Source: Anolis carolinensis (taxonomy: Eukaryota). From it: 64,000 nt of DNA. The position numbers were made by a program, and so were the translations under genes. Location of the stretch: the NCBI RefSeq assembly GCF_035594765.1, contig NW_026943828.1, positions 5,175,175-5,239,174 on the forward strand. The letters are read 5' to 3'. Below are positions 35,941 through 38,205 of the stretch, in pieces. Under the pieces are notes generated by a model. It saw only the letters and a list, made by a program, of their open reading frames with translations, made no database searches and was not told where the DNA came from. How positions within the stretch are numbered: position 1 is the stretch's first letter; every line of letters begins with the position of its first letter.

Positions 35941-36784
35941 CCTCCTCTCTCTTCTCCGCCTCCTCCTCCTCCTCCTCCTCCTTTGGGCCGGGATCACAGG
36001 GGTGGGAGGGCCAGAAGCTTCCTTGAGGCCACAAGGCTGCAGTCGAGGGAGGGCAAGCTCATGCTTCACCACTGGCGGATGCGCTGAGGGAGAAGCACCC
36101 GGCTCCTCCTCCTTGTCAGCCACAACATGGCTTTGAATTGGCCAGTTGGGAATGCAGGTCCTTGTTAGTTTGGAAGATTCATTTGGGAAATGTGGCAAGA
36201 GTGACCCTTTGAGATGCTGAGGAAGCAGAGTGGGGAGTCCCTGTGGCATGGGAGATAATGACGTAATCAATAAAGAAATCCTTGTTCCTTTGAGCATTTA
36301 GCACAATTCTGGTAATTCACGGAAACCCATGATCCAGAATATGTTACACCCTTGAATGTTGGGAGGAATTCTGCCTACCTGCCTGCCTTGTGTTCCTTTA
36401 ACCACGTTTGGGTCTGACCCAATGAAATTAGTGTGGTCCTCCAATATGGGAAAAGGGTTCAGTTCCTTCCTTCCGTGATTCCTTCCTTCTCTTATCCTGT
36501 CCTTCTGTGTTTCCTCCCTTCCATCTTTCCTTTCTTCTTTCCTTTTTCGCTTTGTTTACCTTGAGCCAGAGGTATGCGGCTTCATGTCTAACCTTTTGCT
36601 TCTTCTTTCTTGACCAGGACATGAGAGTTCTTTGGAGCCACCCCTGCCGTGATGGGAAATGAACCAGCTTCTAGTAGATATTAAGGATTTTGGAAACCAA
36701 AGTGCAGTAAGAAAACCAGTCCTCTAGGAAAAAGGATTCCTCTCAAGGGGCTGATCCTGCTGAATTCCTACATTCACTTTGGAT

Positions 36785-37027
36785 TATAGAGTAGAACCAT
36801 AGAGTCGGAAGAGACTGTGTGAGGCACCCAGTCCAGGCCTCTGCCGTGCAGGAAAAGTGCAAAGTACCCCTGACAGATGAGCATCTAGCCTCTGTTTAAA
36901 GGATTCCAAAGGAGCCTCCACTACATTTTGAGGCAGAGAGTTCCACTGCTGAACAACTCGTACAGTTAGGAAGTTCTTAATGTTCAGGAGGAATCTACTT
37001 TCCTGTAATTTGAACCCAGTGCTGTGA
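36785..37027 (-). mobile_element. CR1 3' fragment, antisense to ZF3
   Basis: [29 protein letters not shown]...FKQRLD.HLSGVL. Confidence 0.85.
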
Positions 37028-37095
37028 GTAACCAGAAAGGGAAAAACAAGAGTCAAGTGTCCATATTGGAATTAAATGTACATAGCACTGTTGAC

Positions 37096-38205
37096 ATGGA
37101 GGAGAAAGCATATAAATGTATCGAATGTGGAAAGAGCTTTAGTCAGCATGGAAAGCTGAAGAGACATCAAAGGACTCACACTGGGGAGAAACCCTATAAC
37201 TGCCTGGAGTGTGGACAGAGCTTCACTGAGAATGGACACTTACAAAGACATCAAAGGACTCACACTGGGGAGAAACCCTATAACTGCCTGGAGTGTGGAA
37301 AAAGCTTTGCTCATAATTCAACCCTCCATGCACATCAAAGGACTCACACTGGGGAGAAACCCTATATATGCCTGGAGTGTGGACAGAGCTTCACTCAGAA
37401 TGGACACTTACAAATACATCAAAGGACCCACAGTGGGGAGAAACCCTATAAATGCCTGGAGTGTGGACAGAGCTTTTCTGCTAGTTCAACTCTACGTAAA
37501 CATCAAAGGACACACACTGGGGAGAAACCCTATAACTGCCTGGAGTGTGGACAGAGCTTTGCTGATAGTTCAACTCTACGTAAACATCAAAGGACTCATA
37601 CTGGGGAGAAACCCTATACATGCCGGGAGTGTGGACAGAGCTTTGCTCGGAGTGCAGGTCTGCATTCACATCAAAAGACTCACACTGGGGAGAAACCCTA
37701 TAACTGCCAGGAGTGTGGACAGAGCTTTGCTCATAGTTCAAGTCTACGTGGACATCAAAGGACTCACACTGGGGAGAAACCCTATAAATGCCTGGAGTGT
37801 GGACAGACCTTCGCTCAGATTGGAACTCTACATTCACATCAAAGAACTCACACTGGGGAGAAACCCTATACATGCCTGGAGTGTGGACAGAGCTTTGCTC
37901 AGGGTTCAGGTCTACGTTCACATCAAAAGACTCACACTGGGGAGAAAGCCTATATATGCCTGGAGTGTGGACAGAGCTTTGCTCATAGTTCAAGTCTACG
38001 TGAACATCAAAGGACTCACACTGGGGAGAAACCCTATAAATGCCTGGAGTGTGGACATACCTTCAGTCATAGTGGATATCTACGTAAACATCAAAGGATT
38101 CACACTGGGGAGAAACCCTATACATGCCTGGACTGTGGAAAGAGCTTTACTCGTAGTTCAGGTCTACGTTTACATCAAAGAACTCACACTGGGGGAAAAC
38201 CATAG
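37096..38205 (+). CDS. C2H2 zinc-finger protein ZF3, 13 fingers
   Basis: Uninterrupted C2H2 ORF; gacATGG start; upstream acceptor at 36617. Confidence 0.92.

What the first reader, a model, noticed from the sequence alone, without database searches (positions are those of the whole stretch)
36590..37110. Probable finger-only proteins formed by decay of the ancestral linker and a shared CR1 insertion
Seen: a strong acceptor (CTAAC branch, pyrimidine tract, CAG) at 36617, 62545 and 5743(-) opens a linker-like frame (GHESSLEPPLP*WEMNQLLVDIKDFGNQ...) with several stops. An antisense CR1 fragment interrupts it in all five genes, and ZF2/ZF4 also carry a 7-bp insertion just before the array. The arrays stay open and start at a conserved gacATGG five codons before finger 1. 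I recognised no KRAB, SCAN or SET exon. Inference: the family expanded after losing its effector domain and may act by steric blocking or competition, with the old linker and CR1 now 5' UTR.
Basis: partly seen in the sequence, partly recalled or inferred. Interest (0 to 1): 0.7.

Follow-up and report, generated by a model that had tools for sequence, protein, structure and literature searches.

The report
Large finger-only gene family in lizard
This lizard genome carries an estimated 150 or more related zinc-finger genes with no recognisable silencing domain and a non-coding front end, whose finger-coding parts are kept intact by selection, so they likely make proteins of DNA-reading fingers alone that would act by occupying DNA rather than by recruiting the usual repressor.

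Summary
The CR1 is not the cause.

The five window genes belong to a family of about 150 genes (79 exact acceptor copies), mostly on contigs C18, C19 and C26. A 664-kb stretch holds 35 arrays and no KRAB or SCAN match at protein level, and no KRAB match at DNA level.

Three processed retrocopies show a GC-rich first exon spliced to this acceptor, directly or through an antisense LINE exon, never through an effector exon. The leader is full of stops and frame-breaking indels. The arrays show at most 7 lesions where about 88 are expected, and their DNA-contact residues vary.

CR1-free paralogs have the same acceptor, closed leader and ATG, so the CR1 entered an already non-coding leader once. 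Descent of the leader from a KRAB-type linker has only one weak match. How the proteins act is untested; predicted fingerprints do not favour competition with KRAB/SCAN proteins.

Finger-only proteins (OZF/ZNF146) and bulk counts of lizard ZNF-only models are in print; I found no description of this family. The scan noted smaller effector-less lizard ZNF sets before, on other DNA.

The parts
33160..33304 (.). Head-to-head GC-rich promoter region between ZF2 and ZF3: two outward-facing YY1-like motifs (33170, 33297) and two CCAAT boxes (33207, 33247)
   Evidence: Seen in the sequence; GC 65%. Motif names recalled; promoter role inferred.
33277..33395 (+). Likely exon 1 of ZF3, non-coding apart from a 7-codon uORF; ends in a GA repeat, donor GT at 33396
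   Evidence: 77% match to the 5' exon of retrocopy L175; donor and uORF
36588..36617 (+). Branch motif, pyrimidine tract and acceptor AG of the last exon
   Evidence: 79 exact 30-mer copies in the genome; used in three retrocopies
36618..36786 (+). 5' leader, closed in all three frames; possibly a decayed coding linker
   Evidence: weak snake linker match
36787..37030 (-). 3' fragment of a CR1-type LINE, inserted once into the leader; ends approximate
   Evidence: empty site in paralogs; one clade, 100/99
37031..37095 (+). Leader after the CR1; open in ZF3 but frame-broken in 9 of 28 CR1-bearing genes
   Evidence: 6 with +7 nt, 2 with -4 nt, 1 with -2 nt
37096..38205 (+). ZF3 ORF: 369 aa, 5-residue start and 13 C2H2 fingers, nothing else
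   Evidence: start context G at -3 and +4
13193..13286 (-). Exon 1 of ZF1 (second exon-1 type, no ATG)
   Evidence: 97% to the 74-nt 5' exon of retrocopy L176, which joins straight to the acceptor
5264..5772 (-). ZF1 acceptor (5743), leader with CR1, ATG at 5264
3819..5264 (-). ZF1 ORF: 481 aa, 16 intact fingers after a first finger with Cys to Ser
29662..31191 (-). ZF2 ORF: 509 aa, 18 fingers
31192..31545 (-). ZF2 leader with CR1 and 7-bp insertion (31200-31206); shared acceptor replaced by another repeat beyond 31545
49452..50813 (-). ZF4 ORF: 453 aa, 16 fingers; recent duplicate of ZF2
   Evidence: (95-97% over 6 kb)
50814..51167 (-). ZF4 leader with CR1 and 7-bp insertion; acceptor lost as in ZF2
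57675..57930 (.). Second head-to-head GC-rich promoter region, with the exon-1 homolog for ZF4 (57781 to 57675) and the likely start for ZF5
62516..63022 (+). ZF5 acceptor (62545) and leader with CR1
63023..64000 (+). ZF5 ORF, continues past the window (537 aa, 18 intact fingers after a degenerate first finger)

Best explanation
These are members of a lineage-expanded family of tandem C2H2 genes with no detectable effector exon and a closed 5' leader, which likely make finger-only DNA-binding proteins that would act by occupying their sites, likely in repeats or transposons. Shown: exon 1 from a GC-rich island is spliced to the shared acceptor, directly or via an antisense-LINE exon (retrocopies). 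The leader is closed in every frame. The ORF from the ATG five codons before finger 1 is under purifying selection, and its base-contact residues are diversified. Inferred order of events: an ancestor lost or never had an effector exon and started at this ATG; the leader decayed; one CR1 fell into the leader of one branch; both branches multiplied by tandem duplication and finger shuffling. Inferred: translation by leaky scanning or reinitiation past 6-7 upstream ATGs, so low protein output. Mechanism I commit to, at about 0.4: passive occupancy that blocks access or fixes nucleosomes at young repeat sequence, with cofactor recruitment through the fingers themselves as the main alternative.
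For: No KRAB at protein level (best E 5.8) or DNA level (best E 0.3, control 40 of 40), and no SCAN (best E 3.8), in 664 kb with 35 arrays. N-terminal parts of ZNF homologs, a set that held SET-annotated PRDM9-like proteins, gave 0 hits once arrays were masked. Pfam on 150 of 191 intronic frames gave only RVT_1 over a cut-off. Three retrocopies (L176, L175, L170) join exon 1 to the acceptor; their middle exons read as LINE ORF2 on the other strand. Of 22 leaders with a called acceptor, all have 4-10 stops in the finger frame, and lengths fall 6/10/6 across the three phases. 30 of 34 ORFs hold 8-22 fingers. In 28 CR1-bearing arrays about 47 nonsense changes and 41 frameshifts are expected at the leader's rate; at most 5 premature stops and 2 disrupted array ends are seen. 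Scaffold N/S ratio is 0.21, and 9 of 452 finger units have a broken ligand. Contact pN/pS is 1.74, and 0 of 435 gene pairs share a whole fingerprint. Precedents: OZF/ZNF146 binds L1 without KRAB (PMC8896011); SCAN ZNFs anchor nucleosomes on TEs without heterochromatin (bioRxiv 2025.03.03.638093).
Against: No direct transcript, ribosome or protein data. Three retrocopies sample few isoforms, and two of them stop before the ATG. 6-7 upstream ATGs precede the start, two in strong context in ZF3 and one overlapping it out of frame. 4 of 34 genes, ZF2 and ZF4 among them, lack the shared acceptor, so their splicing is unknown. 4 of 34 ORFs are cut short. No target was predicted or shown. 35% of fingers have small residues at both +3 and +6 (5% in other arrays), which could mean weak specificity. 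ZNF146 loss changed no gene's expression and did not activate L1 in HEK293 (PMC8896011). The contact ratio was not tested for significance and finger pairs are not independent. 41 of 191 intronic frames, all in the ZF4 intron, were not scanned with Pfam.
Confidence: 0.68

Rival explanations
1. The CR1 insertion broke the linker and created the finger-only state.
For: The CR1 is in 28 of 35 arrays in 664 kb and marks the larger clade.
Against: 6 CR1-free genes in the cluster and about 10 dispersed ones have the same acceptor, closed leader and ATG. The CR1 genes form one clade (100/99) whose nearest CR1-free relatives already carry the early stop.
Confidence: 0.04
2. The genes are ordinary effector-ZNFs whose effector exon was missed (divergent, unknown domain, or spliced to a downstream acceptor).
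For: Unknown N-terminal domains exist in other ZNF families (FiNZ, PMC10547256). 29 codons upstream of the ZF3 ATG are open, and AG dinucleotides lie there.
Against: That stretch is frame-broken in 9 of 28 genes. The AG at 37019 is AC in most paralogs. Retrocopies use the upstream acceptor. Conserved intronic pieces that appear as exons are antisense LINE.
Confidence: 0.08
3. The arrays are passengers of segmental duplication, untranslated and drifting; open frames reflect youth and finger homogenisation.
For: Copies are young (96-99% at the acceptor). Many uORFs are present. Some members are broken. Gene conversion could shorten the arrays' real divergence and inflate my expectation.
Against: A more than tenfold deficit of stops and frameshifts, and a ligand/core N/S ratio of 0.02. 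The deficit holds against the adjacent leader, which has 9 frame-breaking indels in about 310 nt.
Confidence: 0.07
4. The proteins are dominant-negative competitors of KRAB/SCAN ZNFs at shared sites.
For: Both classes coexist in the genome (442 KRAB and 713 SCAN first-look candidates).
Against: Against 33 arrays near KRAB boxes, the longest shared fingerprint run is 0 or 1 finger in 989 of 990 pairs and 2 in one. Finger DNA is at most 78% like the family consensus. The sample is small (40 KRAB loci), and different fingerprints can read the same DNA.
Confidence: 0.12
5. The fingers bind RNA or proteins and recruit cofactors themselves, so the proteins are active regulators without a named effector domain.
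For: Finger 1 is conserved and distinct in the CR1 clade. KRAB-less ZNF507 interacts with PRMT5 (PMC8896011).
Against: Finger 1 has lost a zinc ligand in several members with long ORFs. Variation is concentrated at base-contact positions, as expected for DNA reading.
Confidence: 0.25

Closest known systems
OZF/ZNF146 (human; PMC8896011, passages read)
   Same: A protein of tandem C2H2 fingers with no other identifiable domain; binds LINE-1 DNA without KRAB.
   Different: ZNF146 is a single, highly conserved gene. This is a family of about 150 young genes with shuffled, diverging fingerprints. No orthology is implied.
'ZNF-only' gene models of Anolis carolinensis (Liu et al. 2014, PMC3971581; passages and table 1 read; supplement not read)
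   Same: 723 lizard ZNF-only models were counted, 484 overlapping Ensembl models; these genes are probably among them.
   Different: The count came from a fragmented assembly and was stated to include recent pseudogenes. The passages read describe no such family, exon structure or selection.
Recurrent effector loss in mammalian KRAB/SCAN ZNF clusters (Tadepally et al. 2008, PMC2443715; passages read)
   Same: Tandem clusters, duplication, loss or degeneration of N-terminal domains.
   Different: There the loss is described gene by gene inside KRAB/SCAN clusters. Here a whole effector-free family expanded on contigs where no KRAB or SCAN match was found in the 664 kb tested, and loss of an effector is inferred, not shown.
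FiNZ-ZNFs of cyprinid fish (Wells et al. 2023, PMC10547256; passages read)
   Same: A large, lineage-specific, KRAB-free family with selection on base-contact residues.
   Different: FiNZ-ZNFs carry a conserved 28-aa N-terminal domain and have knock-down evidence for TE repression. These have a 5-residue start and no functional data.
SCAN-ZNFs that anchor nucleosomes on TEs (bioRxiv 10.1101/2025.03.03.638093; abstract and passages read)
   Same: KRAB-independent control by occupancy is the working model proposed here; the class is expanded in squamates.
   Different: Those proteins keep a SCAN dimerisation domain; none was found here.

Membership tests
KRAB-ZNF | KRAB-A exon upstream of the finger exon | tested here: not met
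   Genome-derived KRAB protein and DNA profiles: best E 5.8 and 0.3 in 664 kb; controls 30 of 30 (tblastn) and 40 of 40
KRAB-ZNF | Open linker from the last acceptor into the fingers | tested here: not met
   4-10 stops in the finger frame in 22 of 22 leaders
KRAB-ZNF | Tandem C2H2 array with TGEKP-type links in one last exon | tested here: met
KRAB-ZNF | Descent of the leader from a KRAB/SCAN-ZNF linker | tested here: inconclusive
   One weak snake match; none among 30 same-genome pre-finger stretches near KRAB boxes or in the representatives library
SCAN-ZNF | SCAN exon | tested here: not met
   Profile from 12 SCANs of this genome: best E 3.8 in 664 kb; none of the top 150 of 713 Pfam candidates on C18, C19 or C26
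PRDM9-like | PR/SET domain upstream of the array | tested here: not met
   No SET among Pfam hits in 150 of 191 intronic frames; 0 tblastn hits with homolog N-termini; no dedicated SET profile was run
ZNF-only (OZF-like) proteins | ORF consists of fingers only | tested here: met
ZNF-only (OZF-like) proteins | Spliced mRNA without effector exon | tested here: met
   Three retrocopies; genomic evidence only
ZNF-only (OZF-like) proteins | Protein is made and binds DNA specifically | not testable with these tools
   Only indirect: purifying selection
TE-targeting ZNF families (KZFP, FiNZ, SZFP) | Binding to and control of transposable elements | not tested
   No motif prediction or binding data
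TE-targeting ZNF families (KZFP, FiNZ, SZFP) | Positive selection on base-contact residues | tested here: inconclusive
   pN/pS 1.74 at -1, 2, 3, 6 against 0.21 on the scaffold by another count; no likelihood test, pairs not independent

The most novel reading that the evidence does not exclude
Anole lizards run a second, effector-free genome-surveillance system: about 150-220 fast-diversifying finger-only proteins, massed on two 6-Mb contigs apart from the KRAB and SCAN clusters, that restrain young transposons purely by occupying their DNA. It would be an amniote case in which a ZNF arms race went on without any silencing domain.
Probability: 0.25. Interest if true: 0.78.

Novelty: new variant of a known kind. 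Interest (0 to 1): 0.5.

Why it matters
ZNF-only gene models in non-mammalian genomes are usually ambiguous: they may be fragments, pseudogenes or genes with missed exons. Here retrocopies, CR1-free paralogs and selection together indicate a real family that expanded without an effector. It gives a natural test of an open question: whether the DNA-binding arrays alone, without KRAB, SCAN or FiNZ, are enough for selection to multiply and diversify tandem ZNFs, and whether they control transposons by occupancy.

Tried and rejected
Expression: no RNA holder was listed on record; the runs are only guessed to be RNA. Contigs of four such runs were laid on 32600-37150. They covered introns too and listed no GT-AG joint. 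One run had a GA-repeat loose end at the acceptor (3 contigs) that fits the exon 1 splice, but it could come from the C5 retrocopy, so I give it no weight.

Protein searches: the homolog search with ZF3 gave only generic ZNFs. 0 of 10 family proteins were found by exact look-up. The 47-aa leader peptide found nothing among longer proteins. The leader profile found 2 hits among 1.84 billion representatives, both unrelated repeat proteins. The snake linker found only itself and nothing in this genome.

dN/dS of the leader did not single out a frame (0.61, 1.22, 0.65; the first 35 codons of the ORF gave 0.58), so it is uninformative about past coding.

One search covered an intronic stretch by my coordinate error and showed only intron homology across the family.

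I tested the middle exons as decayed KRAB exons and rejected that: no KRAB DNA match, and they read as LINE ORF2 on the other strand.

The non-helix pN/pS (0.32) is biased because intact C and H were required; one search replaces it.

Junction patterns found only the known C5 retrocopy (1 match; 0).

No structure or complex prediction was run; it would not bear on the question.

Full report
Setting. The window is G000:C19:5175175-5239174 in a 1.85-Gb genome. Earlier scan notes call it green anole, and contig C2 has the length listed for an Anolis carolinensis record. It holds five C2H2 arrays fed by three GC-rich islands, two of them head-to-head.

Observation. The acceptors at 36617, 62545 and 5743(-) are as described. 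All five genes share the antisense LINE fragment and the ATG five codons before finger 1; ZF2 and ZF4 share the 7-bp insertion. The fragment matches the 3' end of full-length two-frame elements with an ATTCTATG tail at 74%; I name it CR1 from recalled signatures. ZF2 and ZF4 lack the acceptor, because another repeat replaces the leader beyond 31545 and 51167.

Family size. The acceptor region gave 223 first-look candidates. An exact 30-mer acceptor pattern gave 79 copies, 73 of them on C18, C19 and C26. Eighteen of the 79 lie in the 664-kb stretch I surveyed, which holds 34 genes, so scaling gives about 150 genes. C18 and C19 are 6.2 and 5.9 Mb. Divergent members lie on C3, C4, C5, C9 and C17, several near contig ends, and two CR1-bearing copies lie on C1.

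No effector. In 664 kb with 35 arrays, profiles built from this genome's own KRAB and SCAN sequences found nothing: best E 5.8 and 3.8. A KRAB DNA profile gave best E 0.3 while hitting 40 of 40 control loci. N-termini of ZNF homologs gave 0 hits after masking the arrays. Pfam on 150 of 191 sense-strand frames of 36 aa or more between promoter and ATG returned only RVT_1 over a curated cut-off. The top 150 of 442 KRAB and of 713 SCAN candidates genome-wide include none on C18, C19 or C26; the rest were not scored. The dispersed loci were also negative.

Exon structure. Three processed copies record spliced mRNA. L176 (C5) has a 74-nt first exon, 97% identical to window 13286-13213(-), joined straight to the acceptor. 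L175 (C4) has an exon like 33277-33402, a middle exon, then the whole last exon with a decayed array. L170 (C3) shows the same plan for the CR1-free branch. Both middle exons read as LINE ORF2 on the opposite strand: one matches the window's LINE frame at 46435-46551 (67% aa); the other I recognise from recall. No copy carries an effector exon. This is genomic evidence of past germline transcription, not a measure of current expression.

The leader is non-coding. All 22 leaders with a called acceptor have 4-10 stops in the finger frame, and their lengths fall in all three phases, 6/10/6. The 29 open codons before the ZF3 ATG are frame-broken in 9 of 28 CR1-bearing genes. Spliced models of ZF3 and ZF1 have 7 and 6 upstream ATGs, while the array ATG has G at -3 and +4. 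Translation by leaky scanning or reinitiation is an inference.

The CR1 came late. 6 of 35 arrays in the cluster have the acceptor and ATG but no CR1, as do about 10 dispersed genes. Their leaders are closed too. In a tree of 38 leaders the 23 CR1 rows form one group (100/99) next to CR1-free C3, C4 and C17 genes, which show the empty site. The early stop is present in all 14 rows displayed. One more divergent gene (L165, minus strand) lacks it, but its leader is still out of frame with the array and no KRAB was found in the 20 kb tested around it.

Was the leader a linker? Possibly. A leader profile scored a snake SCAN-KRAB-ZNF linker (P0062) best, at 12.8 bits against 10.5 for the best of 2400 shuffles. 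By eye 12 of 22 residues match without gaps, but hhalign gave only E 0.011 and probability 3.9%. No match appeared among 30 pre-finger stretches near KRAB boxes in this genome or in large protein libraries. The linker-like frame starts in phase 0 in most CR1-free lineages and phase 1 only in the CR1 clade and two relatives, whereas KRAB-ZNF last exons usually start in phase 1 (recalled). Effector loss is therefore a reasonable inference from established ZNF evolution (PMC2443715), not a result.

The arrays are selected. 30 of 34 ORFs hold 8-22 fingers. At the leader's rate, 28 CR1-bearing arrays should have collected about 47 nonsense changes and 41 frameshifts; at most 5 premature stops and 2 disrupted array ends are seen, and no frameshift before the shared terminal stop. 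Gene conversion makes the expectation rough. The scaffold N/S ratio is 0.21, the ligand and core ratio 0.02, and 9 of 452 units have a broken ligand. Contact positions show pN/pS 1.74, descriptive only. None of 435 gene pairs shares a whole fingerprint.

Mechanism. With five residues before finger 1 and usually only a link remnant after the last finger, the product can only bind. I favour passive occupancy at repeat-derived sites (about 0.4), by analogy with OZF/ZNF146 on LINE-1 (PMC8896011), nucleosome-anchoring SCAN ZNFs (bioRxiv 2025.03.03.638093) and the ZNF-TE link across animals (PMC10547256). Recruitment through the fingers is the main rival. Competition with KRAB/SCAN proteins has no support: shared fingerprint runs with 33 sampled arrays are at most 2 fingers. 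Against strong function, ZNF146 loss had no transcript effect in HEK293, and 35% of these fingers carry small residues at both +3 and +6.

Prior knowledge. ZNF-only proteins and effector loss are known, and Liu et al. counted 723 ZNF-only models in the anole draft (PMC3971581, table 1; its supplement was not read and may list these loci). Seven literature searches returned no description of this family; the library lacks most subscription papers. The scan earlier noted a seven-gene effector-less subfamily in another lizard and ZF-only genes paired with SCAN-KRAB genes elsewhere in this genome (unchecked AI notes).

Verdict. A real, large, effector-free ZNF family: a new variant of a known kind. 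Interest 0.5.

Noticed in passing
L176/L245 (G000:C5:62.61-62.62 Mb) and L170/L246 (G000:C3:44.53-44.54 Mb): Two independent chimeras: the spliced 5' leader of a family mRNA runs straight into the 5' end of the same full-length CR1-type LINE (4.5-4.7 kb, with tail), and no finger sequence follows the LINE. The C5 junction pattern occurs once in the genome. Template switching from the LINE onto these mRNAs, or 5' transduction, would explain it and would point to germline expression.
   Followed up: partly
C19 664-kb stretch, e.g. G000:C19:5000337-5000470: An antisense LINE fragment of about 135 nt occurs 13 times in the cluster and appears as a middle exon in retrocopy L175; a second LINE-derived exon matches 7 places.
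   Followed up: partly
window 33160-33304 and 57675-57930: Bidirectional GC-rich promoters with outward-facing YY1-like motifs and two CCAAT boxes drive head-to-head pairs ZF2/ZF3 and ZF4/ZF5 (motif names recalled).
   Followed up: no
window 63023-63060 and 5227-5264: Finger 1 of ZF1 and ZF5 has its second Cys replaced by Ser; other lineages have lost a finger-1 ligand by different changes.
   Followed up: no
window 18332-32735 and 39222-52351: A segmental duplication of about 14 kb at 90-97% identity produced ZF2 and ZF4.
   Followed up: no
window 88-2481 (-): Ty3/gypsy-type LTR retroelement frames with gag, zinc knuckle and protease matches.
   Followed up: no
G000:C19:5141740-5145183 (L097/L098): A 41-finger array with an internal stop after finger 21, probably an array duplication past the stop codon.
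   Followed up: no
window 38203-38275: Most ORFs end at a shared stop in the last link, followed by a degenerate finger left in the 3' UTR.
   Followed up: no
L197, L208, L221 (G000:C2:16.6-17.4 Mb): Arrays with very short pre-finger stretches near KRAB boxes; their finger DNA is only 72-75% like this family, so they look like a separate finger-only group.
   Followed up: no
family-wide, 30 ORFs in 664 kb: Contact residues are dominated by R/H/Q at -1, G at +3 and S at +6; small residues at both +3 and +6 in 35% of fingers against 5% in other arrays.
   Followed up: no
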